NCBI RefSeq assembly: GCF_050920415.1
Contig: NZ_CP169309.1
Source of the DNA: Escherichia coli
GTDB lineage: Bacteria; Pseudomonadota; Gammaproteobacteria; Enterobacterales; Enterobacteriaceae
DNA: 64,000 bases
Strand: one strand, 5' to 3'
Numbering within the stretch: position 1 is the stretch's first letter; each line of letters starts with the position of its first letter. Of this stretch, positions 1-39,415 are shown in pieces. Under the pieces are notes generated by a model. It searched no databases. It worked only from the letters and a program-made list of their open reading frames with translations, and was not told the DNA's origin. The position numbers and the translations under genes were made by a program.

Positions 1-698
1 ATTGCGCAGACTGACGCGGCGCTGTGGGTTTCTACGATCATGCGTCGTTTAACCTGATTCTCAGTAAACAATTGATCCAGTAACTGGCGATAGCTGTCAG
101 TACGGGAAAGGCTGATGTAGTTCTCACCCTGAAAATCATCCGGCGTTAATACCTTTTTTACCGCCAGCGGATGACCCAGAGGTAACACACACACTTCATC
201 TAAAGAGAGTAATTCGGTACGTTCTGTTCCCGCAGGCGTATGGAGCGTTTCAGTGAGTCCTAAATCATGACGCTGGGCCGAGAGCCACTCTTCAAGTAGC
301 GGTGACTCCTGCGGCACGATATTTAAGCTGACATCGGGATAACGTGCCAGAAAGGGTTGCAGGAGCTGCGGTAAAAAAGATTGCGAAAAGACCGGCAGGC
401 AGGCAATAGACAGTTCTCCCTGGCGAAACTCGCGCAGACTTTCTGCGGCACTGACAATGCGATCCAGTCCGTACCAGGATCGTTGCACTTCTTCAAACAG
501 ACGCAGTCCTTGCACGGTAGGATGTAATCGTCCACGTATGCGCTCAAACAATTTCAGCCCGATCACCTTCTCAAAGCGCGCCAGTTCGCGGCTGACGGTT
601 GGCTGTGAGGTGTGTAGCAGGTGTGCCGCCTCAGTCAGGCTTCCGGCGGTCATTACCGCATGAAAAATTTCAATATGACGTAAGTTAACGGCGGCCAT
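1..698 (-). CDS. lysR: LysR transcriptional activator of lysA, 3' end runs off window start
   Basis: Manual minus-strand translation from ATG at 698-696 gives MAAVNLRHIEIFHAVMTAGSLTEAAHLLHTSQPTVSRELARFEK... (LysR-type HTH); divergent from lysA. Not in ORF track because no stop lies in the window. Confidence 0.85.
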   Translation of the reverse strand, partial: MAAVNLRHIEIFHAVMTAGSLTEAAHLLHTSQPTVSRELARFEKVIGLKLFERIRGRLHPTVQGLRLFEEVQRSWYGLDRIVSAAESLREFRQGELSIACLPVFSQSFLPQLLQPFLARYPDVSLNIVPQESPLLEEWLSAQRHDLGLTETLHTPAGTERTELLSLDEVCVLPLGHPLAVKKVLTPDDFQGENYISLSRTDSYRQLLDQLFTENQVKRRMIVETHSAASVCA

Positions 699-819
699 TA
701 GCGCTCTCTCGCAATCCGGTAATCCATATCATTTTTGCATAGACTCGACATAAATCGATATTTTTTATTCTTTTTATGATGTGGCGTAATCATAAAAAAG
801 CACTTATCTGGAGTTTGTT

Positions 820-2082
820 ATGCCACATTCACTGTTCAGCACCGATACCGACCTCACCGCCGAAAATCTGCTGCGTTTGCCCGCAGAATTTGGCTGCCCG
901 GTGTGGGTCTACGATGCGCAAATTATTCGTCGGCAGATTGCAGCGCTGAAACAGTTTGATGTGGTGCGCTTTGCACAGAAAGCCTGTTCCAATATTCATA
1001 TTTTGCGCCTAATGCGTGAGCAGGGCGTAAAAGTGGATTCCGTCTCGTTAGGCGAAATAGAGCGTGCACTGGTGGCGGGTTACAATCCGCAAACGCACCC
1101 CGATGATATTGTTTTTACGGCAGATGTTATCGATCAGGCGACGCTTGAACGCGTCAGTGAATTGCAAATTCCGGTGAATGCGGGTTCTGTTGATATGCTC
1201 GACCAACTGGGTCAGGTTTCGCCAGGGCATCGGGTATGGCTGCGTGTTAACCCGGGGTTTGGTCACGGGCATAGCCAAAAAACCAATACCGGTGGCGAAA
1301 ACAGCAAGCACGGCATCTGGTATACCGACCTGCCAGCCGCACTGGAATTGATACAACGTCATCATCTGCAGCTGGTCGGTGTTCACATGCATATTGGTTC
1401 CGGCGTTGATTACGCACATCTGGAGCAGGTGTGTGGTGCTATGGTGCGTCAGGTCATCGAATTTGGTCAGGATTTACAGGCTATTTCTGCGGGCGGTGGG
1501 CTTTCTATTCCTTATCAACAGGGTGAAGAGGCGGTTGATACCGAACATTATTATGGTCTGTGGAATGCTGCGCGTGAGCAAATCGCCCGCCATTTGGGCC
1601 ATCCTGTGAAACTGGAAATTGAACCGGGTCGCTTTCTGGTAGCGCAGGCTGGCGTATTAATTACTCAAGTGCGGAGCGTCAAACAAATGGGTAGCCGCCA
1701 CTTTGTGCTGGTTGATGCCGGGTTCAACGATCTGATGCGCCCGGCAATGTACGGTAGTTACCACCATATCAGTGCCCTGGCATCTGATGGTCGTTCTCTG
1801 GAACATGCACCAACGGTGGAAACCGTCGTCGCCGGACCGTTATGTGAATCGGGCGATGTCTTTACCCAGCAGGAAGGGGGAAATGTCGAAACCCGCGCCT
1901 TGCCGGAAGTGAAGGCAGGTGATTATCTGGTACTGCATGATACAGGGGCATATGGCGCATCAATGTCATCCAACTACAATAGCCGTCCGCTGTTACCAGA
2001 AGTTCTGTTTGATAATGGTCAGGCGCGGTTGATTCGCCGACGCCAGACCATTGAAGAATTACTGGCGCTGGAATTGCTTTAA
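820..2082 (+). CDS. lysA: Diaminopimelate decarboxylase
   Basis: 420 aa ORF; sequence recognised as LysA; divergent from lysR as in E. coli. Confidence 0.95.
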   Translation: MPHSLFSTDTDLTAENLLRLPAEFGCPVWVYDAQIIRRQIAALKQFDVVRFAQKACSNIHILRLMREQGVKVDSVSLGEIERALVAGYNPQTHPDDIVFTADVIDQATLERVSELQIPVNAGSVDMLDQLGQVSPGHRVWLRVNPGFGHGHSQKTNTGGENSKHGIWYTDLPAALELIQRHHLQLVGVHMHIGSGVDYAHLEQVCGAMVRQVIEFGQDLQAISAGGGLSIPYQQGEEAVDTEHYYGLWNAAREQIARHLGHPVKLEIEPGRFLVAQAGVLITQVRSVKQMGSRHFVLVDAGFNDLMRPAMYGSYHHISALASDGRSLEHAPTVETVVAGPLCESGDVFTQQEGGNVETRALPEVKAGDYLVLHDTGAYGASMSSNYNSRPLLPEVLFDNGQARLIRRRQTIEELLALELL

Positions 2083-2088
2083 CTGCGG

Positions 2089-3120
2089 TTAGTCGCTGGT
2101 TGCATGATGACTTGCCTCCAGCGACGGAGTTGACACTGAATGGCGACGTACCAGCGTCGGACTAAAGACATTAGTGATTTCCGGGAGAGGGCGATTATCA
2201 GCCAGCGCCAAAGCCAGTTCGGCAGCCTGGGTCGCCATCGTCACGATTGGGTAACGCACGGTGGTCAGACGCGGGCGCACATAGCGTGACACCAGCACAT
2301 CATCAAAGCCAATTAACGAAATCTCACCCGGTACTTCAATACCATTATCATTGAGAACGCCCATCGCACCCGCCGCCATTGAATCGTTATAACAGGCTAC
2401 CGCAGTGAAATTCCTTCCGCGTCCCAAAAGCTCGGTCATTGCCTGTTCGCCGCCGCTTTCGTCTGGTTCGCCAAATGTCACCAGCCGATCATTGGCCGGA
2501 ATACCACTTTCAGCGAGGGCATCGTAATAACCCTGCAGACGATCTTCGGCGTCAGAAATAGAGTGGTTAGAGCACAGATAACCAATGCGGGTATGACCTT
2601 GTTGAATTAGATGACGCGTTGCCAGCCAGGCACCGTAACGGTCGTCCAGAGCAATACAACGGTTTTCAAAGCCAGGCAGGATGCGGTTGATCAGCACCAT
2701 ACCGGGCATTTGTTTCATTAATGAGGCTAAGTCGGCATCCGGGATCATTTTGGCATGGACGACCAGCGCAGCGCAGCGATGGCGGATCAGTTGCTCAATG
2801 GCCTGACGCTCTTTTTGCTCGTTGTGGTAACCGTTGCCAATCAATAAAAAATTACCAGTGTGATAAGCCACCTGTTCGACCGCTTTCACCATTGCACCGA
2901 AAAACGGATCGGAAACATCACCAACGACCAGACCGATCGTTTCAGTGGTCTGCTGCGCCAGCGCACGGGCGTTGGCGTTCGGGTGATAGCTAAGAGACTC
3001 CATTGCACTATGCACAGCCAGTCGGGAAGCTTCGCTGGCTTTGGGTGAATTATTAATGACGCGGGAAACGGTGGCGACTGAAACGCCTGCCAGTCGGGCT
3101 ACATCCTTTATGGTCGCCAT
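2089..3120 (-). CDS. galR: Galactose operon repressor (LacI family)
   Basis: 343 aa ORF starting MATIKDVARLAGVSVATVSRV (HTH); recognised as GalR. Confidence 0.95.
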   Translation of the reverse strand: MATIKDVARLAGVSVATVSRVINNSPKASEASRLAVHSAMESLSYHPNANARALAQQTTETIGLVVGDVSDPFFGAMVKAVEQVAYHTGNFLLIGNGYHNEQKERQAIEQLIRHRCAALVVHAKMIPDADLASLMKQMPGMVLINRILPGFENRCIALDDRYGAWLATRHLIQQGHTRIGYLCSNHSISDAEDRLQGYYDALAESGIPANDRLVTFGEPDESGGEQAMTELLGRGRNFTAVACYNDSMAAGAMGVLNDNGIEVPGEISLIGFDDVLVSRYVRPRLTTVRYPIVTMATQAAELALALADNRPLPEITNVFSPTLVRRHSVSTPSLEASHHATSD

Positions 3121-3333
3121 GAAAATACCTTAGTGGGTAAACGCTTACGTTCTGTCAGTGTTACGGAAAATACCTGTTGGTTCAAGTGGCGACGTGTTTT
3201 CATCGTGGGAATGTGAGCCAAACGCAAATAAATAAGACAAAAAAAGAGATTGCAAACCTTTGGTTACACTTTGCGAAACGCTGTTGCGATTGACCGCTGG
3301 TTGCGTTTGGCTTCAGGTTGCTAAAGTGGTGGT

Positions 3334-3416
3334 CCCAGAGGTATTGATAGGTGAAGTCAACTTCGGGTTGAGCACATGAATTACACCAGCCTGCGCAGAT
3401 GCGCAGGTTTTTTTTT
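3334..3416 (+). ncRNA. omrB: OmrB small regulatory RNA
   Basis: Starts CCCAGAGGTATTGATAGGTGA, ends with hairpin CCTGCGCAGATGCGCAGG plus T9; shares 5' and 3' ends with the adjacent copy; lies between galR and aas, where I recall the OmrA/OmrB pair. Confidence 0.85.
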
Positions 3417-3530
3417 GCCGGCCATCAATCTGTAACAGTAACCGACAATTTACACACCTCGTTGCATTTCCCTTCATTCCTTTGCGTTTTCTCGCTGGCG
3501 AAGAGTCGTTGTGCAGACCACAATCAAGAT

Positions 3531-3618
3531 CCCAGAGGTATTGATTGGTGAGATTATTCGGTACGCTCTTCGTACCCTGTCTCTTGCACCAACCTGCGCG
3601 GATGCGCAGGTTTTTTTT
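3531..3618 (+). ncRNA. omrA: OmrA small regulatory RNA
   Basis: Starts CCCAGAGGTATTGATTGGTGA, ends with hairpin CCTGCGCGGATGCGCAGG plus T8; paralogous to the upstream copy. Confidence 0.85.
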
Positions 3619-3684
3619 CGCACCTAATTTACTGTCGCTCGCGTTCTTTATCTCGTGTAATCTCCCTCCATTCGCTTTTACTGA

Positions 3685-7051
<3,367 letters not shown>

Positions 7052-7054
7052 TCT

Positions 7055-7080
7055 TTAACGCCGGTTTTAACCGGCGTTAA
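7055..7080. terminator. Bidirectional hairpin between convergent lplT and tas
   Basis: Palindrome TTAACGCCGG ttttaa CCGGCGTTAA immediately after both stop codons. Confidence 0.6.
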
Positions 7081-7082
7081 TC

Positions 7083-8123
7083 TTATGGTGCCGGATAAGT
7101 ATAAACCTGATGCACCGCTTCAATTTCAGCTAATACGTCTTCGCTTAACTCCAGATGCAAACTTTCGACGTTAGTTTTCAGCTGCTCCATCGTGGTTGCG
7201 CCCAGCAGAGTGCTGGCAACAAACGGTTGACGGCGTACAAAAGCGAGCGCCATCTGAGCAGGATCCAGGCCATGACGTCTGGCGATATCAACATACGCCG
7301 CGACGGCTTTTTGCGTTTGCTCACCGCTATAGCGAGTGAAGCGGCTAAAGAGCGTATTACGTGCGCCAGCAGGTTTTGCACCGTTGAGGTATTTCCCGGT
7401 CAGCGTGCCGAAACCCAGACACGAATAGGCCAGCAGCTCAACCCCTTCATACTGGCTGACTTCTGCCAGACCCACTTCAAAACTGCGGTTTAACAGACTG
7501 TAGGGGTTCTGAATGGTGACAATACGCGGCAGATCGTGTTTGTCCGCCAGATGCAGGTAACGCATTACGCCAAATGCAGTTTCATTCGATACGCCGATAT
7601 AACGAATTTTCCCCGCGCGTTGGTACTCTGCCAGTGCGTCCAGCGTATCCAGCAGCGAAACCGCAGGGGCAGAATCTGTCCAGCTATAACCGAGTTTGCC
7701 GAAGCAGTTGGTTGGGCGCTGCGGCCAGTGCACCTGATAAAGATCGAGGTAATCAGTCTGCAGGCGCTTGAGGCTGTCATGCAGAGCTTCGCGGATATTC
7801 TTCCGATCCAGCGCCTGATCCGGGCGGATGCCCTTGTCATTATTGCGCGACGGTCCGCTCACTTTGGAAGCGATAATTAACTTTTCGCGGCTGCCATGTT
7901 TTGCCAGCCAGTTACCGACGTAGGTTTCGGTTAACCCTTGCGTTTCGGGGCGCGGCGGCACTGGGTACATTTCGGCAACGTCGATAAGGTTAATGCCCTG
8001 AGCGACGGCATAGTCGAGTTGTGCGTGGGCGTCGGCTTCGCTGTTCTGTTCACCAAACGTCATCGTGCCAAGCCCCAGCGTGCTGACTTCCAGCGAACTG
8101 TGGGGTATACGGTGATATTGCAT
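7083..8123 (-). CDS. tas: Aldo-keto reductase Tas
   Basis: 346 aa ORF; AKR family; recognised as Tas. Confidence 0.9.
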   Translation of the reverse strand: MQYHRIPHSSLEVSTLGLGTMTFGEQNSEADAHAQLDYAVAQGINLIDVAEMYPVPPRPETQGLTETYVGNWLAKHGSREKLIIASKVSGPSRNNDKGIRPDQALDRKNIREALHDSLKRLQTDYLDLYQVHWPQRPTNCFGKLGYSWTDSAPAVSLLDTLDALAEYQRAGKIRYIGVSNETAFGVMRYLHLADKHDLPRIVTIQNPYSLLNRSFEVGLAEVSQYEGVELLAYSCLGFGTLTGKYLNGAKPAGARNTLFSRFTRYSGEQTQKAVAAYVDIARRHGLDPAQMALAFVRRQPFVASTLLGATTMEQLKTNVESLHLELSEDVLAEIEAVHQVYTYPAP

Positions 8124-8230
8124 AGCCGTTTCCTTTTTATAATCACGACATAAGGAATATAAAAATGGCAGAGGGAAGGGAAAAGGGAAAGCGAAAAATC
8201 TTAAGGCCAGCCGGATGCTGACCTTATTTT

Positions 8231-8449
8231 TTAACGTTCAATAATTTGCGAAACATCATCACGGTTAATTTGCATCGCGTTACCTTGCTGATCGTGATAA
8301 CTCACCAGCCCGGTATCATCATCAATTTCAGGTTTTCCATCGGTCAAAATCATACGGCCATCTTTGGTCGCCATGACGTAATCACTGGAACACCCGGAAA
8401 CAGCAAACGCCAGTCCGACTGCAGAAATTATTACTGCCCATTTTTTCAT
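8231..8449 (-). CDS. ygdR: Small lipoprotein (DUF903 family)
   Basis: 72 aa; signal peptide with lipobox AVSGC; paralogous to the ORF at 42189. Confidence 0.85.
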
Positions 8450-8586
8450 CCGGTTATCCTCATTTGGCCCACCTATGATAATAGTCTTTTTATAAACCGA
8501 CGTTATATATCTTGAAAGCAGGAAAATCTTAAACTGTGAGGGTAACAGGAGTGAGTACGCTCTCCTGCAGGAGAGCGTACGGAGTA

Positions 8587-9300
8587 TCAGAGCGGATTCT
8601 TTTTGTTGCGAATCAGGTTGAGGCTTTCAACCGCAATAGAGAAGAACATCGCGAAGTAGATGTAACCTTTCGGTACGTGGATGTCGAAACTTTCCAGAAT
8701 CAGGGTAAAGCCCACCAGAATCAGGAAAGAGAGCGCCAGCATTTTTACCGAAGGATGGCGTTCGACAAAATCACCAATCGAGCGCGCGGCAAACATCATC
8801 ACGCCTACGGCAATCACCACGGCTGCCATCATAATAAACAGGTGATCTGACAGACCCACAGCGGTAATCACCGAGTCGAGGCTGAAGATAATATCCAGCA
8901 GCATAATCTGCACGATAGCGCCGAGGAATGATGAAACGCGTGTTTTCAGCCCTTCTTCTTCACCTTCGATGGATTCGTGGATTTCCTTGCTGGCTTTCCA
9001 GATAAGGAACAGACCTCCCAGCAGCAGAATCAAATCACGGGCGGAAATTTCCTGACTGAATATTGTAAAAAGTGGATTCGTCAGGCGCGTTACCCAGGCT
9101 ATTGACGCCAGCAGCGCCAGACGCATAACCATGGCTCCCGCCAACCCCAGACGGCGCGCATGTGCACGTTGTGCCGTGGGGAGCTTTGCCACCACCAGAG
9201 AAAGGAAAATAATATTGTCGATCCCAAGAACGATCTCCAGCAGCGTCAGCGTACCGAGCGCAAGCCAGGCGTTAGGATCGGTTATCCATGCAAATAACAT
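8587..9300 (-). CDS. ygdQ: TerC-family inner membrane protein
   Basis: 237 aa polytopic membrane ORF; recognised as YgdQ. Confidence 0.85.
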
Positions 9301-9368
9301 CTAAAAAGCCCTGCCAAAAAAATGAAGCGGTAATTATATGCCCGGAAAGCGGCAGGTCAAAGCGATGG

Positions 9369-10058
9369 CTACTGGATCAGAAAATGACGGGCCAGTAGCG
9401 CACTGGTGAAATTCTTCTTCAAATAAAAGCCACGCGGCAGCGTCAGAATCCGTTCGCCCCGGGCACCAATGGCTTCGGTAAGCGCTTTCGCATTCGCTGC
9501 TTTCGGGCGTATCTGTAAATACTCCCCGTGACGAGCGGTGATCCGCTCAACCTGACCGAGAACAATCATATCCATTAATTCTTCCCAGTCTTCGCGCAGT
9601 TGCCGGTCTTCCTCTTCATTCGGGCTCCATAGCAATGGTGATCCTACGCGACGCTGCGCCAGCGGGATGCTGCGCTCGCCTTCAACCGGTATCCACAGCA
9701 CGCGTTTGAGCTTGTGGCGCACGTGGCTGGTTTCCCAGGTCACCCCGCTATTACCCGTTAACGGGGCAACACAAACGAATGTTGTTTCCAGCGGACGACC
9801 AAGACTATCCACAGGGATAGTTTTAAGTTCCACGCCCAGAGCAGCAAAATCTTGCTCAGGTTTACTCCCTGCGCTGGCACCTAGCCAGATCTCCAGTAAC
9901 ACGCCAATCCAGCCCTTATCGCGTTTTAAATTCTCCGGCGTCACCAGCCCAGCAAGTGCCGCCAGTTCTCCCAATGTATAACCAGAAAGTTGTTGTGCTT
10001 GCGCTAACAATTGTTCTTCAGTTTCGGGAGGAGAGAGCAGTGGGCGAGGTTGGGACAT
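9369..10058 (-). CDS. mutH: Methyl-directed mismatch repair endonuclease MutH
   Basis: 229 aa; recognised as MutH. Confidence 0.95.
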
Positions 10059-10246
10059 GTCATGATACCTTGGTTAAAAAACAAACAGCACTTCTGTGCC
10101 GAATATTCGCAGTGTAACTTTTTCCACATGCGTTGTTCAATTCTCTGATTTATATTGCTTTTTAGGTGTCGGATAATCCAGTTGCGCAACACTGCAACGG
10201 GTTTTCCAAATCTGGTCACTGAAAATAAACAGGATCTTACACCATG

Positions 10247-30885: not shown

Positions 30886-32139
30886 ATGTCGGGATCCAAC
30901 ACAGCAATCAGCCGTCGTCGTTTACTGCAAGGCGCGGGTGCCATGTGGCTATTGAGCGTAAGTCAGGTCAGTCTGGCTGCGGTCAGCCAGGTCGTGGCGG
31001 TGCGCGTCTGGCCTGCGTCCAGCTACACCCGTGTGACGGTAGAATCTAATCGTCAGCTGAAATATAAGCAGTTCGCGTTGAGTAACCCTGAACGCGTGGT
31101 GGTGGATATCGAAGATGTAAACCTGAACTCAGTGCTCAAGGGGATGGCGGCACAAATTCGTGCTGATGACCCGTTCATTAAGTCGGCGCGCGTCGGGCAG
31201 TTTGACCCGCAAACCGTGCGGATGGTTTTTGAGTTAAAGCAAAACGTAAAACCGCAGCTGTTTGCCCTTGCTCCGGTCGCCGGGTTTAAAGAGCGTCTGG
31301 TGATGGATCTCTATCCTGCCAATGCTCAGGACATGCAGGACCCGCTGCTGGCGCTGCTGGAGGATTACAATAAAGGCGATCTCGAAAAGCAGGTGCCGCC
31401 TGCGCAGAGTGGCCCGCAGCCAGGCAAAGCAGGGCGCGATCGTCCGATTGTCATTATGCTTGACCCTGGCCATGGCGGCGAAGACTCCGGTGCGGTGGGG
31501 AAATACAAAACGCGTGAAAAAGACGTGGTATTGCAAATTGCCCGCCGTTTGCGCTCTCTGATTGAGAAAGAGGGCAATATGAAAGTTTACATGACCCGTA
31601 ATGAAGACATCTTCATTCCGTTGCAAGTGCGCGTAGCAAAAGCACAGAAACAGCGTGCTGACTTGTTTGTCTCTATTCATGCCGATGCCTTTACCAGTCG
31701 CCAGCCGAGCGGTTCCTCTGTGTTTGCGCTCTCTACCAAAGGTGCAACCAGTACCGCGGCAAAATATCTGGCGCAAACTCAGAACGCCTCGGACTTGATT
31801 GGTGGCGTGAGTAAGAGCGGCGACCGTTATGTCGACCATACTATGTTCGATATGGTGCAGTCGCTGACCATTGCCGACAGTCTGAAGTTTGGTAAAGCTG
31901 TGTTGAATAAGCTCGGTAAAATCAACAAGCTGCATAAAAATCAGGTTGAACAAGCCGGGTTTGCCGTGCTGAAAGCGCCTGATATACCCTCTATTTTGGT
32001 CGAAACGGCGTTTATCAGTAACGTTGAGGAAGAACGTAAACTGAAAACGGCAACCTTCCAGCAGGAAGTTGCGGAATCAATCCTCGCAGGGATAAAAGCG
32101 TATTTTGCCGATGGGGCGACGCTGGCGAGAAGGGGATAA
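30886..32139 (+). CDS. amiC: N-acetylmuramoyl-L-alanine amidase AmiC (Tat-exported)
   Basis: Start at ATG 30886 ([19 protein letters not shown] twin-arginine signal); amidase_3 domain. Confidence 0.93.
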
Positions 32140-32310
32140 TGTTTTTATTTATTCAATGAATTTATATTTCGTTGAATAGATAATATTTACCTGAATATTA
32201 GACGTTGGTTTTGTGACTGATGTCGAATATTTGAATGTCGGCTTGAAAAATAAGCCGACCATCTCTTTAATTAAGCACAATTCCGTGTAATGTATATGCA
32301 TTAGTTAATC

Positions 32311-32340
32311 ATCTTGTAACTGTTAAATCAGGCAAGGCAA
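32311..32340 (+). promoter_or_regulatory. RAT (ribonucleic antiterminator) element of a BglG/SacY-type antitermination leader
   Basis: ATCTTGTAACTGTTAAATCAGGCAAGGCAA resembles the RAT consensus GGATTGTTACTG-N6-CAGGCAAAACC and overlaps the 5' arm of the following terminator. Confidence 0.65.
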
Positions 32341-32385
32341 TGTTTGAAGTAATTATTACTTCTGACGTGCCTTGCCTTTTTTTTT
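32329..32385 (+). terminator. Leader terminator partnered with the RAT
   Basis: 10 bp stem AGGCAAGGCA / TGCCTTGCCT with ~28 nt loop, followed by T9 (32377-32385), directly upstream of the antiterminator RBS GGAG. Confidence 0.7.
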
Positions 32386-32396
32386 GGAGCTATGGA

Positions 32397-33220
32397 ATGA
32401 TCATCGAAAAAGTCATGAACAATAATTGTGTACAGGCATCGATGAATGGACAGGAGGTTATCATTTCTGGGCCTGGCGTCGGTTACAAAAAAAATATGGA
32501 ATGTCGGTCCCTGAGCATCCGGCTAACCGGATTTTTTATGTCAGAAATGAACAAAAAAATAAACTCTACAAATTGATTGAGCATGTGGATATTGAGTATA
32601 TTTTTGTTGCCGAATAAATAGTGCAATATGCGGAGAACAATCTCGAAAAAAATCTCAATCCATCGCTACTATTGATTCTTGCTGATCATATTTCGAATGC
32701 AATATCCCGAGTCGCTTCAGGCATACAAATTAATAATGTTTTCCTTGATGAAATCAAAGCGTTGTACAAAGCAGAGTATGCGATAAGTCGCGATGCATTA
32801 ACTATCATTAATGAGCAATTCAGCGTTCAACTTCCTGATGATGAGATTGGTTTTATAGCATTGCATATTTTAAATAATTATGAGAATTCAGTTGATTATG
32901 AATCAGTACGGATTATTGAGTTGTCGCAAATAATCACGGGGCTTATTGAAGTTGTTTATAACAGAAAGGTGGACAGAAGTTCATTTAATTATTCCAGGTT
33001 CATGATACACCTTAAATATTTTTCAAGTCGCGTATTATGCAATGAAAAAATAAAACAGAAAGATATTGGTGATCTCTATGAACAGTTTCTTGAGAAAGAC
33101 ATTCTGTTACAGCGCGCAATTCATGAAATTGAAAGGTATTTGTACGCCACTTTTAAATATGAATTGATTTTGGAAGAAAAACTATATCTCTCTATTCGCA
33201 CCAAAGTATTAATGGACTGA
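32397..33220 (+). pseudogene. BglG/LicT-family transcription antiterminator (CAT-PRD1-PRD2), disrupted
   Basis: CAT domain MIIEKVMNNNCVQASMNGQEVIISGPGVGYKK in one frame; continuation ...RIFYVRNEQKNKLYKLIEHVDIEYIFVAE in the -1 frame after an A8 run (32486-32493); in-frame TAA at 32615-32617; PRD region continues to 33220 (FIALHIL, FMIHLKYF conserved His). Confidence 0.8.
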
Positions 33221-33251
33221 TTATATATAACATTTATATGAGATAACCCGC

Positions 33252-34832
33252 ATGAAACAAAAGAAAGCCTGGAGTTTTTTTCAGAGCCTGGGAAAGGCAT
33301 TTATGTATCCCATCGCTCTGCTAAGTGTATGTGGCATGATGTTAGGGCTAGGAAGTGGTTTAGCCAGCGATGATATGGCAAAATTAATTCCACTACTGGC
33401 TATTCCCGTAATTAAAACCATTCTTGATTTTATTGTTAGCCTTGGTTTGTTTGCCTTTGTCAATTTACCTGTATTGTTTGCGATAGCTATACCTCTGGGG
33501 TTATTAAAAGAGAAAGAGGATAAAGCCTATGGCGCTTTTTCTGGCTTAATTGGTTTCATGGCGATGCATCTGGGAACGAACTTTTATCTTAAACAACATG
33601 ACTTATTGGTCGCTGCTGATCAAATGTCGACACATGGGCAAACCATTATTCTGGGAATCCAGTCCTACAATACCAGTGTGTTGGGTGGGATTATAGCAGG
33701 ATTATTAGTCGCCAGTATGTATAAAAAGATCGTTAACTTACGTATTCCTGAATCATTAGGATTTTATAGTGGCCCACGCCTGGTGCCTATTATTACACTG
33801 ATTGTGATGAGTGGATTTGGTCTGATCATCCCTTTTATCTGGCCGCCATTTTTCAATCTTTTCATGCTCATTGGCCACTGGATTTCAACTTCCGGTCCTG
33901 TTGGCTATTTTTTCTATGCAGTCGCCGAACGCGTGACGATACCTTTTGGTTTAAATCACCTGGTGACGTCAGTTTTCCGCTTTACCCCCATCGGCGGATC
34001 GGCAGTGATCGGCGGAGAAGAGTATTATGGCACCCTGAACATGTTTATGGCGTACGTCAAAGAGAATGCGGTCATTCCGCTGGAGTTGGCGGGGAAAATG
34101 GAACAGGGCAAACTGATGATTCAGTATGGTCTGGCTGGTGCCGCGCTGGCGATGTATCGCACTGCTCATGCTCAAAACAGAAAAGCTATCAAAGCATTGC
34201 TTATTTCCGGGGTGCTTACAGTCATTATTGGCGGCGTCAGCGAACCGATTGAGTTTCTGTTCTTATTTGTCAGTCCACTGCTATTTGTCTTCCATGCTTT
34301 TATGAATGGATTCGCCAACATGGTCTTGCCATATATGGGCGTGAAGATGGGATTTACTGGCGATCTGATTCAATTTATTAGCTTTGGCGTATTGCGTGGC
34401 ACAAGAACAGGTTGGCCAATAGCGGTGTGTGTCGAAGTGGCCTATTTCTTTATTTATTACTTTGTGTTCCGTTGGACTATTCTCAAATTTAACCTGATGA
34501 CGGTAGGCCGTGAAGAGTCCAGTCCTGTCACGCTGAACGCTCATGAGGATACGGCTATAGCGGATATCCCAACGCTTGATAAATCAGAGCTGCAAGCAGC
34601 GGAGCAGATGGTTAAGGCACTTGGTGGTAAAGAGAATATTAAATCCCTGGATAATTGCGTAACTCGTTTACGTTTAACAATCGCAGATATGGGATTGATT
34701 GACGAGGCAGCAATAAAAAGAGCTGGCGGAATTGCGGTTGTTAAACTTGATCAAAATACCCTACAAGTCATTATCGGTACTAAAGTCATCGCCTTGCGTC
34801 GGGATATGGATAACTACATGGGGATATGCTGA
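33252..34832 (+). CDS. PTS sugar transporter EIICB, glucose/maltose family, no EIIA domain
   Basis: 526 aa; polytopic EIIC with SEPIEF motif; C-terminal EIIB with phospho-Cys motif NCVTRLR. Confidence 0.9.
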   Translation: MKQKKAWSFFQSLGKAFMYPIALLSVCGMMLGLGSGLASDDMAKLIPLLAIPVIKTILDFIVSLGLFAFVNLPVLFAIAIPLGLLKEKEDKAYGAFSGLIGFMAMHLGTNFYLKQHDLLVAADQMSTHGQTIILGIQSYNTSVLGGIIAGLLVASMYKKIVNLRIPESLGFYSGPRLVPIITLIVMSGFGLIIPFIWPPFFNLFMLIGHWISTSGPVGYFFYAVAERVTIPFGLNHLVTSVFRFTPIGGSAVIGGEEYYGTLNMFMAYVKENAVIPLELAGKMEQGKLMIQYGLAGAALAMYRTAHAQNRKAIKALLISGVLTVIIGGVSEPIEFLFLFVSPLLFVFHAFMNGFANMVLPYMGVKMGFTGDLIQFISFGVLRGTRTGWPIAVCVEVAYFFIYYFVFRWTILKFNLMTVGREESSPVTLNAHEDTAIADIPTLDKSELQAAEQMVKALGGKENIKSLDNCVTRLRLTIADMGLIDEAAIKRAGGIAVVKLDQNTLQVIIGTKVIALRRDMDNYMGIC

Positions 34833-36007
34833 TGGATGTTTTTAATACTCCTATTTCCCGCAAAGGAACATATTGTACCCAATGGGACTTTTGCGAGGAC
34901 AGATTTGGTGTAAAAGATGTATTACCATTCTCTATTTCAGATATGGATCTTCCGATACCGGAAGCTATCATCAGGGCATTAAGAAAACGTCTGGAACACC
35001 CGATTTTAGGGTACAGCCGTTGGCAGCATGATGACTATCTGAATGCGATAGTCAATTGGTATCATCAACAATATAAAACTGAAATCAAACCAGAATGGAT
35101 CACCTATAGCCCAAGCGTGATGTACTCCATTGCTAAAGCAATAGAGTTATTGACATCGCATGGTGATAATATTCTCGTTTTTACACCTGTCTATAATGCA
35201 TTTTTTGATATAATTAAACATAGCGAGAGAAATATTCTGACAGCCTCTTTGATTATAAAAAATGAGGGGGGCTACGCTATCAATTGGCAAGATTTTGATC
35301 TTAAGATTCAAAGCGCAAAGATGGTGTTATTATGTAATCCTCATAACCCGACAGGAACCGTCTGGTCGGAAGAAGAGCTGCATAAAATCGCTGCAAGCTG
35401 TGCAAGACATAATGTCTGGTTATGTTCAGATGAAATTCACAGTGATTTTGTTTTTAATCGTAGCTTTACATCTGCGCTTAAAATAAAAAAAGAAAAAGTA
35501 GTGGTGTTTAATTCGATATCGAAGACATTTAATGTTCCTGCGCTAACAGGATCGTATATGATTTCAACTGACGATAATTTTAATCATAAGTTCAGGACGA
35601 TATCAAGATATCGCGATTTTGTAAACTCCCCATCCGTACTGAATATAATTGCAACTATTATTGCCTATAACGAATGTGAGGGATGGTTAAAGTCATTAAA
35701 GGCACATATTGCCTCTAACATTCAATTCACCCAGCAGTATCTGAACGAAAATACTCCAGAATTGATTGTAAGGCCTGCTGATGGTTGCTATTTTTCGTGG
35801 ATAGATTGCTCTGCTATTGGTTATCCCTTTGATGAATTCTACAGTCGATTAATTCATGAAGGCAAAGTGGGCATTATGGCGGGGAATGTCTATGGAACGG
35901 AGGGGGAGGGCTACCTTCGTCTGAACCTGGCCTGCGGTCGAGAAAAATTATATATGGGGCTTACGCGTCTTGCGAGTGTAATTAAAAATATTAATCAAGG
36001 AAAATAA
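34832..36007 (+). CDS. MalY/PatB-like PLP-dependent C-S lyase (aminotransferase class I/II fold)
   Basis: N-terminus MDVFNTPISRKGTYCTQWD aligns with E. coli MalY MFDFSKVVDRHGTWCTQWD; SxSKTFN PLP-lysine region; alternative ATG at 34826 overlaps the PTS stop. Confidence 0.88.
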   Translation: MDVFNTPISRKGTYCTQWDFCEDRFGVKDVLPFSISDMDLPIPEAIIRALRKRLEHPILGYSRWQHDDYLNAIVNWYHQQYKTEIKPEWITYSPSVMYSIAKAIELLTSHGDNILVFTPVYNAFFDIIKHSERNILTASLIIKNEGGYAINWQDFDLKIQSAKMVLLCNPHNPTGTVWSEEELHKIAASCARHNVWLCSDEIHSDFVFNRSFTSALKIKKEKVVVFNSISKTFNVPALTGSYMISTDDNFNHKFRTISRYRDFVNSPSVLNIIATIIAYNECEGWLKSLKAHIASNIQFTQQYLNENTPELIVRPADGCYFSWIDCSAIGYPFDEFYSRLIHEGKVGIMAGNVYGTEGEGYLRLNLACGREKLYMGLTRLASVIKNINQGK

Positions 36008-36009
36008 AA

Positions 36010-36606
36010 ATGAACAGCACGGATCTTATCCATCTCATTAAACATTTTATGCGTAACGAACATAAAGCAGTTGAAGAAGTTATTGATTCCCCCCTTTCGG
36101 AGGTCGCAAATTTAATTAAAGTATTACAGTCTTGTCAGGGGAAAGTTGTTTTTATTGGTGTCGGTAAGTCCGGTATTATTGCCCGAAAACTCGCCGCAAC
36201 ATTTGCCAGCACTGGAACTCCCTCGTTTTTTGTTCACGGTACTGAAGCCGTACACGGCGATCTTGGGATGGTGGCGAAAGATGATGTTGTTATTCTTATT
36301 TCAAACAGTGGTGAGACGACAGAAATCCTGGCAACACTACCTAGTCTGAAAAAAATGGGTAATTATTTGATCTCCTTTACCCGCAGTCATCGCTCATCGC
36401 TTGCGATAAGTTGTGATTTATCCGTTGAAATTCCCGTAAAAAGTGAGGCGGATAATTTAGGTTTAGCGCCGTCATGCTCATCAACAGTCGTTCTGGTTGT
36501 TGGTGATGCGGTGGCGCTTGCGCTCTCCGAATTGAAAAAGTTTACTTGTGCTGATTTCGGCTTATATCATCCAGGAGGTGCGCTCGGTATTAAAGCAAAC
36601 TCATAA
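36010..36606 (+). CDS. SIS-domain-only sugar-phosphate isomerase, KdsD/GutQ-like without CBS domains
   Basis: 198 aa; GVGKSGIIARKLAATFASTGTPSFFVHGTEAVHGDLGMV and SNSGET closely resemble the KdsD SIS domain; ORF ends where CBS domains would begin. Confidence 0.88.
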   Translation: MNSTDLIHLIKHFMRNEHKAVEEVIDSPLSEVANLIKVLQSCQGKVVFIGVGKSGIIARKLAATFASTGTPSFFVHGTEAVHGDLGMVAKDDVVILISNSGETTEILATLPSLKKMGNYLISFTRSHRSSLAISCDLSVEIPVKSEADNLGLAPSCSSTVVLVVGDAVALALSELKKFTCADFGLYHPGGALGIKANS

Positions 36607-36676
36607 TTTTAGAATATAAAACAGTAACCGGTCACGCCATCTTTTGGGGTGGCGTTCATTGATGTGAGTGTCAGCT

Positions 36677-37624
36677 ATGAAAAACGTTCTGGTCACCGTT
36701 CCCAGCTTTTCAGCGCGTTGTGTTTCTGCCAGCAAGCTGCTAAGAGAAAATCATTTTAACCTTATTATCAAGAATAATGTGGAGCATCTGGTTAAATCAG
36801 AATCCACAGTATTACGAGAATCTATTTGCGCAGTCATTGCCGGAAAAGATTGTTATCAAGCGGATACGTTATCGCGACTACCAGGAGTGAAAATAATATC
36901 GAGATTCGGGACAGGGATTGATAATATTGATCTTCATACGGCTCGACAATCAGGTATTGTGGTCAATAATGCTGTTGGGATTAATTCAAATGCAGTCGCG
37001 GAATTTATCATTGGTCTTATTTTTGCGAGCATGAGAAATATCCCCGGTAGCTATCATGCGATGCAAAATGGTTATTGGGGCGAGTCGCATGGCTGCGAGT
37101 TACAAGGTAAACGTATTGGCCTGCTTGGCTACGGCAATATTGGCAAAACACTGGCGAAAAGGTTATCTGGTTTTGATGTTGAGCTTTTAGCTTTTGACAA
37201 ACAACCCGATTTCCAGGCCGCAGGCAAAGATGGAGTTCAGTTCGTATCAATTGAAGATATCTTTATGCAGTCTCATGTCATCATCGTTCTTTTGCCATTT
37301 TCTCCGGAGCTGGAGAACTTCATTAGTCATAAATATTTGTCGATGATGCGCAATGGTGCTCTTATCATCAACGCCGCAAGGGGAAAGTTGCTGGATGAGA
37401 GTGCTTTACTTCAGGTAATTGAAGAACGAAATGTTTTTGCAGCACTGGATGTGTTTAGCTCTGAACCGCTAGCGCAATTTAGCCCATTGCTACATGCCAG
37501 GAATATCATTACAACGCCGCATATTGCGGCCGCCACCGTTGAGTCATACCAGCAAACCGGGATATACGTTGCCAGGTCGATAATAGATTTCTTTGCAGGA
37601 AGGGAGATAAAAAACGTGCTGTGA
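36677..37624 (+). CDS. NAD-dependent D-isomer-specific 2-hydroxyacid dehydrogenase
   Basis: About 315 aa; NAD-binding GLLGYGNIGKT and catalytic-region TPHIAAAT; start could alternatively be GTG at 36668. Confidence 0.85.
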   Translation: MKNVLVTVPSFSARCVSASKLLRENHFNLIIKNNVEHLVKSESTVLRESICAVIAGKDCYQADTLSRLPGVKIISRFGTGIDNIDLHTARQSGIVVNNAVGINSNAVAEFIIGLIFASMRNIPGSYHAMQNGYWGESHGCELQGKRIGLLGYGNIGKTLAKRLSGFDVELLAFDKQPDFQAAGKDGVQFVSIEDIFMQSHVIIVLLPFSPELENFISHKYLSMMRNGALIINAARGKLLDESALLQVIEERNVFAALDVFSSEPLAQFSPLLHARNIITTPHIAAATVESYQQTGIYVARSIIDFFAGREIKNVL

Positions 37625-37650
37625 GTTCAGCTAAGGAAGATTTCAGGTAC

Positions 37651-37683
37651 AAAAAAACCGCAATCTGTGAAACATATTGCGGT
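37651..37683 (-). terminator. Rho-independent terminator of the tRNA-fMet operon
   Basis: On the minus strand, stem ACCGCAAT / ATTGCGGT followed by T7, immediately 3' of the last tRNA copy. Confidence 0.75.
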
Positions 37684-37702
37684 TTATCAGCATCATAAGT
37701 GT

Positions 37703-37779
<77 letters not shown>

Positions 37780-37812
37780 TCACCGTACTGCTTTACTTCA
37801 TCAAATTTTGAT

Positions 37813-37889
<77 letters not shown>

Positions 37890-37922
37890 TCACCGTACTG
37901 CTTTACTTCATCAAATTTTAAT

Positions 37923-37999
<77 letters not shown>

Positions 38000-38032
38000 T
38001 CACCGTACTGCTTTACTTCATCAAATTTTAAT

Positions 38033-38109
<77 letters not shown>

Positions 38110-38317
38110 TCCGTGGATGCGCACTATACTCCGCTCGCGTTTTCATGCAACCTTTTTTTTACCCAGATCACGGATTTGGTATGATTTTGAGCAAAAACAA
38201 ATCACTAAAGCCTGTTTTTTGTGCAAAATTTGCGTCAGGGAGAGGCTGCTCATTTCATTAAACGCGGCGGTTTGTTATCTTCATTGCGCCTTATTTTTTA
38301 AACTGAAGAAGAGAACA

Positions 38318-39415
38318 ATGAAAGGACGTTGGGTAAAGTACCTTCTTATGGGCACGGTTGTGGCAATGCTTGCCGCCTGCTCTTCCAAACCAACCGATCG
38401 CGGACAGCAATATAAAGACGGGAAATTTACCCAGCCTTTCTCTCTGGTAAACCAGCCAGATGCCGTTGGCGCGCCAATTAACGCCGGTGATTTTGCCGAG
38501 CAAATTAACCATATCCGTACTTCGTCACCGCGTCTGTATGGCAACCAGAGTAATGTTTATAATGCGGTGCAGGAGTGGCTACGCGCAGGCGGTGATACCC
38601 GCAATATGCGTCAGTTCGGCATTGACGCCTGGCAGATGGAAGGTGCCGACAACTATGGCAACGTGCAGTTTACGGGCTATTACACGCCTGTCATTCAGGC
38701 GCGCCATACCCGTCAGGGCGAGTTCCAGTATCCTATTTACCGTATGCCGCCAAAACGTGGTCGTCTGCCGTCTCGTGCTGAGATCTACGCGGGAGCATTG
38801 AGCGATAAATACATCCTCGCTTACAGCAACTCTCTGATGGATAACTTCATTATGGATGTGCAGGGTAGCGGGTATATCGATTTTGGTGATGGCAGTCCGC
38901 TTAACTTCTTCAGCTATGCCGGAAAGAATGGTCATGCCTATCGCAGTATTGGTAAGGTGCTGATTGACCGTGGCGAAGTGAAAAAAGAAGATATGTCGAT
39001 GCAGGCGATTCGTCACTGGGGTGAAACACACAGTGAAGCCGAGGTTCGCGAGCTGCTGGAACAGAACCCGTCTTTCGTCTTCTTTAAACCGCAATCTTTT
39101 GCTCCGGTGAAAGGGGCAAGTGCGGTGCCGCTGGTTGGTCGCGCTTCAGTTGCGTCCGATCGTTCCATTATCCCGCCTGGTACAACTTTACTGGCAGAAG
39201 TGCCGCTGCTGGATAATAACGGCAAATTTAACGGTCAGTACGAACTGCGGCTGATGGTGGCGCTGGATGTCGGTGGTGCAATCAAAGGCCAACACTTCGA
39301 TATTTATCAAGGTATCGGGCCGGAAGCCGGACACCGCGCAGGTTGGTACAACCACTATGGACGTGTTTGGGTGCTGAAAACCGCCCCGGGCGCAGGTAAC
39401 GTCTTTAGCGGCTGA
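38318..39415 (+). CDS. mltA: Membrane-bound lytic murein transglycosylase A (lipoprotein)
   Basis: Start at ATG 38318 (MKGRWVKYLLMGTVVAMLAACSS lipobox); the 38036 track ORF is an extension through the tRNA genes. Confidence 0.93.
   Translation: MKGRWVKYLLMGTVVAMLAACSSKPTDRGQQYKDGKFTQPFSLVNQPDAVGAPINAGDFAEQINHIRTSSPRLYGNQSNVYNAVQEWLRAGGDTRNMRQFGIDAWQMEGADNYGNVQFTGYYTPVIQARHTRQGEFQYPIYRMPPKRGRLPSRAEIYAGALSDKYILAYSNSLMDNFIMDVQGSGYIDFGDGSPLNFFSYAGKNGHAYRSIGKVLIDRGEVKKEDMSMQAIRHWGETHSEAEVRELLEQNPSFVFFKPQSFAPVKGASAVPLVGRASVASDRSIIPPGTTLLAEVPLLDNNGKFNGQYELRLMVALDVGGAIKGQHFDIYQGIGPEAGHRAGWYNHYGRVWVLKTAPGAGNVFSG

What the first reader, a model, noticed from the sequence alone, without database searches (positions are those of the whole stretch)
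33252..36007. Second malX-malY-like gene pair in the same genome region
A glucose-family EIICB immediately followed by a MalY-type PLP C-S lyase mirrors the E. coli malX-malY operon in architecture; the lyase N-terminus aligns residue by residue with MalY. MalY is known to moonlight as a MalT antagonist in addition to its cystathionase-like activity. A horizontally acquired paralog could supply C-S lyase activity on the imported compound or cross-regulate the maltose regulon. The adjacent start/stop overlap (ATGCTGATGG) suggests translational coupling.
Basis: partly seen in the sequence, partly recalled or inferred. Interest (0 to 1): 0.55.

Follow-up and report, generated by a model that had tools for sequence, protein, structure and literature searches.

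The report
Known accessory PTS–lyase sugar operon
The transporter and MalY-like enzyme are real, but they belong to an already described five-gene accessory sugar-uptake operon of E. coli (c3405-c3410 of uropathogenic strain CFT073), the enzyme lacks the surface MalY uses to silence the maltose regulator, and this strain has lost the operon's own switch.

Summary
Window 33252-34832 encodes a glucose-family EIICB (42% identical to MalX). It overlaps a PatB/MalY-family PLP lyase at 34832-36007 (36% identical to MalY, catalytic residues intact).

The pair is not a stand-alone malXY copy. It is the middle of a 5.56-kb island (32140-37702) between amiC and the tRNA-Met genes. The island reads: RAT/terminator leader, LicT/BglG-type antiterminator, EIICB, lyase, CBS-less KpsF-like isomerase, PGDH-like dehydrogenase.

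This is the c3405-c3410 operon of CFT073 PAI-metV (92-98% protein identity). It is present in 1688 of 5426 complete E. coli genomes.

The core (antiterminator, EIICB, lyase, short SIS protein) is also found in Clostridioides difficile (CD3027-CD3031) and other Firmicutes. Those EIICBs are 63-75% identical to this one, so the pair belongs to a sister lineage of malXY.

None of the eight MalY residues that contact MalT is conserved, so cross-regulation of the maltose regulon is unlikely.

In this strain the antiterminator carries a frameshift and a nonsense codon, so the operon is probably uninducible.

The substrate remains unknown. Verdict: real, ordinary, already known, low-to-moderate interest.

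The parts
32140..37702 (.). Accessory island that replaces the 73-bp amiC-metV intergenic region of K-12
   Evidence: K-12 homology stops at 32137 and resumes at 37702. GC is 32-49% inside against about 52-55% in the flanking genes. The segment is present in 1683-1688 of 5426 complete E. coli genomes.
32314..32338 (+). RAT-like antiterminator target (TTGTAACTG-N6-CAGGCAAGGC) overlapping the 5' arm of the leader terminator
   Evidence: It resembles both K-12 bgl RATs (GGATTGTTACTGCATTCGCAGGCAAAACC). It is nearly invariant across Escherichia, Citrobacter and Atlantibacter.
32331..32385 (+). Leader intrinsic terminator: stem GGCAAGGCA...TGCCTTGCC followed by T9
   Evidence: The fold gives -32.4 kcal/mol, z = -4.07, and no shuffle folds as well. 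A G:C to A:T change is compensated on both arms in Citrobacter.
32397..33220 (+). LicT/BglG-family antiterminator, a pseudogene in this strain
   Evidence: The C-terminal 199 aa match NCBIfam LicT at 1.5e-46. Against the intact nearest allele there is a 1-nt deletion after 32488 and AAA to TAA at 32615. PGAP marks it 'frameshifted; internal stop'.
33252..34832 (+). Glucose-family PTS EIICB with no IIA domain (c3408 orthologue)
   Evidence: It is 98.5% identical to the CFT073 protein. The EIIB motif NCVTRLR with its cysteine is present.
34832..36007 (+). PatB/MalY-family PLP C-S lyase (c3407 orthologue)
   Evidence: The residues matching MalY Y61, Y121, N173, D201, H204, S230, S232 and K233 are invariant across 13 family members. 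It is 95.9% identical to the CFT073 protein.
36010..36606 (+). CBS-less KpsF/GutQ-type sugar-phosphate isomerase (c3406 orthologue)
   Evidence: KdsD model 8e-58, SIS part only. It is 96.5% identical to the CFT073 protein. The solved structures 5UQI/5VHU, 198 aa, match at 1e-119.
36677..37624 (+). D-2-hydroxyacid (PGDH-like) dehydrogenase (c3405 orthologue)
   Evidence: TIGR01327 PGDH at 2.9e-62, below its cut-off. The best PDB relatives are phosphoglycerate dehydrogenases and glyoxylate or 2-ketogluconate reductases. The start is as in PGAP.
37703..38109 (-). Four tandem tRNA-Met(CAU) genes whose 3' end abuts the island
   Evidence: ARAGORN and Rfam. K-12 and most strains have three copies.

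Best explanation
The two genes are the transporter and the PLP enzyme of a five-gene, substrate-inducible PTS catabolic operon for a sugar derivative that has not been identified. It is the c3405-c3410 operon of UPEC CFT073.

Proposed steps:
1. Transcription starts upstream of a RAT/terminator leader. A LicT/BglG-type antiterminator lets RNA polymerase read through only when the cognate EIICB is busy with substrate. This is inferred from the family and the leader anatomy.
2. EIICB has no IIA domain, so it would take phosphate from IIA-Glc (Crr). It imports and phosphorylates a glucose-like compound. This is inferred.
3. The MalY/PatB-type lyase uses PLP on the lysine that matches MalY K233 to cleave or remove an amino-acid-type part of the imported compound, by beta-elimination to pyruvate and ammonia. 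This is inferred. The C. difficile orthologue is reported to be a cysteine desulfhydrase in vitro.
4. The short KpsF-like isomerase interconverts the resulting aldose and ketose phosphates. The CFT073 protein was published as an arabinose-5-phosphate isomerase.
5. In enterobacteria only, a 2-hydroxyacid dehydrogenase handles a 2-oxo or 2-hydroxy acid product. This is inferred.

The lyase acts as a metabolic enzyme, not as a MalT antagonist. In this particular strain the antiterminator is broken by two lesions, so the operon should stop at the leader terminator and be largely silent.
For: - Operon anatomy and tight junctions: TGATG between EIICB and lyase, and 2 nt between lyase and isomerase.
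- 92-98% protein identity and the same position as in CFT073. The literature places c3405-c3410 in PAI-metV and labels it a maltose/glucose-type PTS set. The title of Mosberg 2011 names the isomerase.
- The four-gene core (CAT/PRD antiterminator, EIICB, lyase, short SIS protein) recurs in C. difficile, three other loci with Gram-positive-type neighbouring genes, and an Enterobacter-like contig. EIICB identity to the window is 63-75%, against 42% to MalX.
- The C. difficile genes change together in expression, and CD3029 is described as an in vitro cysteine desulfhydrase inside a PTS operon.
- A second lineage, whose EIICB is 58-60% identical to MalX, also keeps a lyase next door. The pairing is therefore old and selected.
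- Catalytic residues are invariant.
- dN/dS is 0.03-0.13 for all four genes.
- The RAT/terminator leader shows a compensatory change.
- Regulator lesions.
Against: - No substrate is known, and no step of the chemistry was tested here.
- The dehydrogenase is missing from the Firmicute cassettes, so it is not part of the conserved core.
- The published in vitro activity of c3406 (A5P to Ru5P) does not follow obviously from a hexose-type PTS substrate.
- The Mosberg 2011 text was not available. What I say of its content beyond the title is from memory.
- Silence of the operon in this strain is inferred. Read-through or cross-talk from BglG-type proteins cannot be excluded.
Confidence: 0.6

Rival explanations
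1. One reading: the lyase moonlights like MalY, binds MalT and cross-regulates the maltose regulon.
For: It belongs to the same protein family and has the same gene order as malX-malY.
Against: - None of the eight MalY residues that contact MalT is identical. Six changes are non-conservative, including A84E, S218L, N219K and A221K.
- The same positions vary freely among cassette lyases, while catalytic positions are invariant.
- According to the paper, a Vibrio MalY with only D182C and S218V does not repress, and a D182A/E185A/S218A mutant has little effect on MalT oligomerisation.
- The cassette also occurs in Firmicutes, and I found no evidence of a MalT partner for it there.
Confidence: 0.04
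2. The lyase is simply a general sulfur amino-acid enzyme (cystathionine beta-lyase or cysteine desulfhydrase). Its position next to a PTS gene has no substrate-level meaning.
For: - MalY and the C. difficile orthologue show such activities in vitro.
- The PatB family is annotated this way.
Against: - All ten sampled relatives at 41-51% identity sit next to PTS components. In seven the partner is a Glc-family EIICB on the same strand, directly upstream.
- The stop/start overlap with EIICB is conserved in several of them.
- Linkage kept across phyla in two paralogous lineages argues for a shared pathway.
Confidence: 0.2
3. The operon is anabolic. The isomerase supplies arabinose 5-phosphate for KDO or capsule synthesis, and the other genes are accessory.
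For: - The strongest matches of the isomerase are KdsD, KpsF and GutQ.
- A review cites it in the context of LPS precursors.
Against: - Orthologous SIS genes (48-54% identical) sit in the same cassette in C. difficile and the other Gram-positive-type loci. Gram-positive bacteria make no KDO (general knowledge).
- PTS uptake plus substrate-responsive antitermination is a catabolic design.
Confidence: 0.05
4. The gene pair in this strain is a decaying remnant with no current function.
For: The antiterminator has two independent inactivating lesions among only three differences from its nearest intact allele.
Against: - EIICB, lyase, isomerase and dehydrogenase are full length. Each differs by one amino acid from that allele.
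- All four are under strong purifying selection across alleles.
- The loss is recent and strain-specific, because the regulator is intact in the five other lineages checked.
Confidence: 0.1

Closest known systems
c3405-c3410 operon of PAI-metV, E. coli CFT073
   Same: It has the same five genes in the same order, at the same site between amiC and the tRNA-Met genes. Protein identities are EIICB 98.5%, lyase 95.9%, isomerase 96.5%, dehydrogenase 92.4%, and antiterminator fragment 97.5%.
   Different: The adjacent type VI secretion cluster of PAI-metV is absent here, so the cassette directly abuts the tRNA genes. The antiterminator is a pseudogene here but intact in CFT073. There are four tRNA-Met copies here against the three seen in K-12 and four other strains.
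E. coli malI-malX-malY
   Same: A Glc-family EIICB without IIA is followed on the same strand by a PatB/MalY-family PLP lyase. The catalytic residues are shared.
   Different: - Identity is only 42% and 36%.
- There is no MalI repressor. A LicT-type antiterminator with a RAT/terminator leader takes its place.
- An isomerase and a dehydrogenase follow downstream.
- The junction is a stop/start overlap rather than a 9-nt gap.
- The MalT-contact residues are not conserved.
- malXY is core (5423 of 5426 genomes), while this pair is accessory (1688 of 5426).
Clostridioides difficile CD630_30270-30310 (antiterminator, malX, malY-CD3029, phosphosugar isomerase, IIA-Glc); structure 4DGT/4DQ6
   Same: The core order is the same: antiterminator, EIICB, lyase, short SIS protein. 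Identities are EIICB 68%, lyase 49% and SIS 52%. The EIICB and lyase genes overlap in both.
   Different: The C. difficile operon carries its own IIA-Glc gene and no dehydrogenase. The antiterminators are only 36% identical.
bgl/LicT-type PTS antitermination (E. coli bglG-bglF, B. subtilis LicT)
   Same: The regulator is a CAT/PRD protein. The RAT core overlaps a leader terminator upstream of the regulator gene, as at bglG.
   Different: There is no second RAT/terminator between regulator and transporter, because only 31 nt separate them. The transporter belongs to the Glc/MalX branch, not the beta-glucoside branch. The regulator is inactivated here.

Membership tests
PatB/MalY family C-S lyase | Fold type I aminotransferase class I/II domain and a score above the curated family cut-off | tested here: met
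   PF00155 at 4e-48. TIGR04350 at 368.7 bits against a cut-off of 340. MalY 1D2F at 1e-85 and PatB 6QP3 at 4e-70.
PatB/MalY family C-S lyase | PLP-binding lysine and PLP-site residues (MalY K233, D201, H204, Y121, N173, S230, S232) | tested here: met
   All are identical in the window protein and in 13 of 13 aligned family members.
PatB/MalY family C-S lyase | Beta C-S lyase activity | not testable with these tools
   Only reported for relatives: MalY (annotation) and C. difficile CD3029.
MalY as MalT antagonist | MalT-contact patch A84, C181, D182, E185, S218, N219, A221, R222 | tested here: not met
   The window has E, E, E, H, L, K, K, K at these positions, so none is identical.
malI-malXY operon | EIICB is an equivalog of MalX | tested here: not met
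   TIGR02004 scores 536 bits against a cut-off of 632, and NF007509 scores 526 against 665. Identity to MalX is 42%.
malI-malXY operon | Divergent LacI-type repressor MalI upstream | tested here: not met
   The upstream gene is a LicT-type antiterminator on the same strand.
c3405-c3410 (PAI-metV) operon | Same gene set, order, chromosomal site and high identity to CFT073 | tested here: met
   The T6SS part of PAI-metV is absent.
Glucose-family PTS EIICB | EIIC and EIIB domains, and an EIIB cysteine in the NC[IV]TRLR motif | tested here: met
   PF02378 at 5e-74 and PF00367 at 2e-14. The sequence contains LDNCVTRLRL.
LicT/BglG antitermination system | Intact CAT-PRD1-PRD2 regulator | tested here: not met
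   The gene is present but carries a frameshift and a stop codon. It is intact in other strains.
LicT/BglG antitermination system | RAT overlapping an intrinsic terminator in the leader | tested here: met
   Binding itself was not tested.

The most novel reading that the evidence does not exclude
A glucose-family EIICB is coupled to a MalY-type PLP lyase in two old sister lineages across Firmicutes and enterobacteria. Related lyases also sit beside other PTS types together with M42, M24 or M20 peptidases. In Bacillus salipaludis the MalX-type pair lies between GH85, GH38 and GH125 N-glycan-degrading genes. This pattern could mark an undescribed PTS route for sugar-amino-acid conjugates, such as glycosyl-amino acids from glycoprotein breakdown. 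In that route, PLP-dependent elimination would free the sugar phosphate. The same route would finally explain what MalX and MalY do in E. coli.
Probability: 0.15. Interest if true: 0.7.

Novelty: already known. Interest (0 to 1): 0.3.

Why it matters
The locus is a known accessory operon. It has a published structure and enzymology for one gene and, from memory of Lloyd 2009 and Mosberg 2011 (neither paper was held), a reported role of the six-gene deletion in mouse kidney colonisation. The finding therefore adds no new kind of system.

Two things are useful. First, sequence evidence removes the suggested regulatory link to MalT. Second, the EIICB-lyase pairing proves to be conserved far beyond E. 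coli. That makes the old question of the natural substrate of MalX/MalY-type modules approachable through a cassette with a clear substrate-responsive switch.

Tried and rejected
- Mosberg 2011 and Lloyd 2009 could not be read. Only titles and secondary mentions were available.
- Two literature searches on c-numbers returned mostly unrelated hits, and a third returned nothing relevant.
- Rfam has no family matching the leader; only the tRNAs matched.
- The simple terminator scan missed the leader terminator because its loop is long. Folding and alignment found it.
- I looked for a second malXY-like pair in the window and found none.
- I looked for K-12 sequence inside the island borders. There is none; the island replaces the whole 73-bp intergenic region.
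- I first read the high synonymous divergence among island alleles as a sign of special age. I dropped this because the flanking amiC is just as diverged.
- More distant lyase relatives (28-34% identity, loci L008, L009, L012 and L013) showed no match to the window EIICB, so the PTS linkage is not universal in the family.
Full report
**What is in the sequence**

The window is an E. coli chromosome segment. The gene order is recD, argA, amiC, a low-GC block, four tRNA-Met genes, mltA, tcdA, csdE and csdA.

The two ORFs of the finding are exactly where stated.
- ORF 33252-34832 (526 aa) has PTS_EIIC and PTS_EIIB domains. Its best NCBIfam model is the MalX-type IIBC model, at 536 bits against a cut-off of 632. 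It is 42% identical to K-12 MalX.
- The second ORF has an aminotransferase class I/II domain. It passes the curated PatB C-S lyase model (368.7 bits against 340). Its best solved relative is E. coli MalY (1e-85). It is 36% identical to MalY, with a better conserved, gap-free N-terminus.

The string ATGCTGATGG is at 34826-34835, and the EIICB stop is at 34830-34832. The second ATG (34832) is the likelier start. It follows GGGGA by 7 nt, it is the start PGAP annotates, and it gives the same N-terminal length as MalY. The overlap is therefore TGATG.

There is only one such pair in the 64-kb window. The canonical malXY is a core locus elsewhere on the chromosome, present in 5423 of 5426 genomes. 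The words 'in the same genome region' in the title are therefore wrong.

**The surroundings change the picture**

The pair is the middle of a 5.56-kb insert (32140-37702). The insert replaces the 73-bp amiC-metV intergenic region of K-12. Its GC is 32-49% in 400-nt windows, against about 52-55% in the flanking genes.

The insert contains, in order:
- a leader with a RAT-like element and a strong terminator
- a LicT/BglG-type antiterminator gene
- the EIICB
- the lyase
- a 198-aa KpsF/GutQ-type isomerase that has the SIS domain but no CBS domains
- a PGDH-like D-2-hydroxyacid dehydrogenase

The junctions are tight. EIICB and lyase overlap by one base, and 2 nt separate lyase and isomerase.

**It is a known operon**

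CFT073 carries the same five genes at the same site, next to a type VI secretion cluster. Protein identities to the window are 92-98%.

A comparative-genomics paper places genes c3405-c3410 in PAI-CFT073-metV and lists them as a maltose/glucose-type PTS set kept in uropathogenic strains. The isomerase is the 'unique arabinose 5-phosphate isomerase' of Mosberg et al. 2011; I could see only the title. A 198-residue solved structure matches it at 1e-119 (5UQI/5VHU).

The pair occurs in 1688 of 5426 complete E. coli genomes. The same five genes are present in Escherichia whittamii, two Citrobacter species and Atlantibacter hermannii.

**Relation to malXY**

Outside enterobacteria, the closest lyase relatives (43-51% identical) come from Clostridioides difficile and other loci with Gram-positive-type neighbouring genes. 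In those genomes the neighbours are again a CAT/PRD antiterminator, an EIICB and a short SIS protein. Their EIICBs are 63-75% identical to the window protein, against 42% for MalX. Their SIS proteins are 48-64% identical.

The C. difficile locus is CD630_30270-30310. Its genes change expression together. Its lyase, CD3029, is described as an in vitro cysteine desulfhydrase encoded within a PTS operon.

A second lineage keeps the same pairing. Its EIICB is 58-60% identical to MalX, and it is followed by a lyase and an RpiR-type regulator in Neobacillus and Bacillus.

The window pair is therefore a member of a sister lineage of malXY, not a recent copy of it. The linkage of this kind of transporter to this kind of lyase is old.

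**The MalT idea**

The cryo-EM study of MalT-MalY names the MalY contact residues: A84, C181, D182, E185, S218, N219, A221 and R222. It reports that a D182A/E185A/S218A mutant has little effect on MalT oligomerisation. It also reports that a Vibrio MalY with D182C and S218V cannot repress.

In the window protein these positions are E, E, E, H, L, K, K and K, so none is identical. Across 13 family members the same positions vary freely, while the PLP-site residues are invariant. Moonlighting as a MalT antagonist is therefore not supported. The enzyme itself looks fully functional.

**Selection and state in this strain**

All four structural genes are under strong purifying selection, with dN/dS of 0.03-0.13 against three other E. 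coli alleles.

The antiterminator is broken here. Against the nearest intact allele (strain 2017-02-2CC) it has three differences:
- a 1-nt deletion after 32488
- a nonsense change AAA to TAA at 32615
- one missense change

PGAP flags the same gene as frameshifted with an internal stop in the identical genome. The regulator is intact in CFT073, SMS-3-5, DA33137, NIID080884 and 2017-02-2CC.

**The leader**

The leader holds TTGTAACTG-N6-CAGGCAAGGC, which resembles both K-12 bgl RATs. This element overlaps a hairpin followed by nine T residues. The hairpin folds far better than shuffled controls (z = -4.07). It shows a compensated G:C to A:T change in Citrobacter.

By analogy with bgl and LicT systems, transcription should stop there unless the antiterminator is active. 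The operon is therefore probably uninducible in this strain. This last step is inference.

**Most likely mechanism**

I read the cassette as a substrate-inducible PTS catabolic operon.
1. EIICB, served by IIA-Glc, imports and phosphorylates an unidentified glucose-like derivative.
2. The lyase removes or cleaves an amino-acid-type part by PLP chemistry.
3. The KpsF-like isomerase converts the sugar phosphate for entry into central metabolism.
4. The dehydrogenase, found only in the enterobacterial version, handles a 2-oxo or 2-hydroxy acid.

Only the family assignments, residue conservation, synteny and leader structure are shown here. The chemistry is inferred. An anabolic role in KDO supply is unlikely, because the same SIS gene sits in the cassette of Gram-positive bacteria, which make no KDO (general knowledge).

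**Verdict**

The locus is already described, although its substrate is still unknown. The most novel reading left open is that MalX/MalY-type modules take up sugar-amino-acid conjugates. Gene contexts with peptidases and N-glycan hydrolases hint at this, but nothing here tests it.

Noticed in passing
window 37703-38109: There are four tandem initiator-type tRNA-Met(CAU) genes. K-12 (metZ, metW, metV) and the four other strains whose tRNA region I inspected have three. Only two genomes in the collection matched the fourth copy in full.
   Followed up: partly
window 30886-32139 (amiC): amiC differs from K-12 at 79 of 1254 bases (6.3%) without a single amino-acid change. It is at least 95% identical to the window in only 92 of 5425 genomes. 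By contrast ptrA, about 8 kb upstream, is 96-97% identical to nearly all genomes. The flank next to the island looks like an imported divergent allele in an already rare lineage.
   Followed up: partly
window 32397-33220: Two independent inactivating lesions (a 1-nt deletion and a nonsense codon) are among only three differences from the nearest intact allele of the antiterminator. Each of the four downstream genes differs by one residue from that allele.
   Followed up: yes
L030 (Bacillus salipaludis) 1-10135: A MalX-type EIICB, a lyase and an RpiR regulator lie between GH125 and GH38 mannosidases on one side and a GH85 endo-beta-N-acetylglucosaminidase on the other. This is an N-glycan breakdown context and a possible clue to the natural MalX/MalY substrate.
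   Followed up: no
L025 (Clostridium intestinale) and L026 (Granulicatella): PatB-like lyases 43-48% identical to the window protein sit in operons with lactose-type or fructose-type PTS components and M42, M24 or M20 peptidases. This is reminiscent of the uncharacterised frv and fry (ypdE, ypdF) PTS-peptidase clusters of E. coli, a comparison I make from memory.
   Followed up: no
proteins P0002-P0009 (E. coli and Shigella records): Some database proteins of 550-592 aa carry both the aminotransferase and SIS domains. They appear to be fusions of the lyase and the isomerase, or read-through or annotation artefacts, in the allele group where the two genes overlap.
   Followed up: no
window 37651-37682: The hairpin CCGCAAT...ATTGCGG is preceded by A7 on the + strand. 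On the - strand it reads as an intrinsic terminator just after the last tRNA-Met. It may also end the dehydrogenase transcript.
   Followed up: no
window 38036-39415: The 459-aa ORF listed here starts inside a tRNA gene and is an artefact of ORF calling. The annotated mltA is the 3' 1098 bases.
   Followed up: yes
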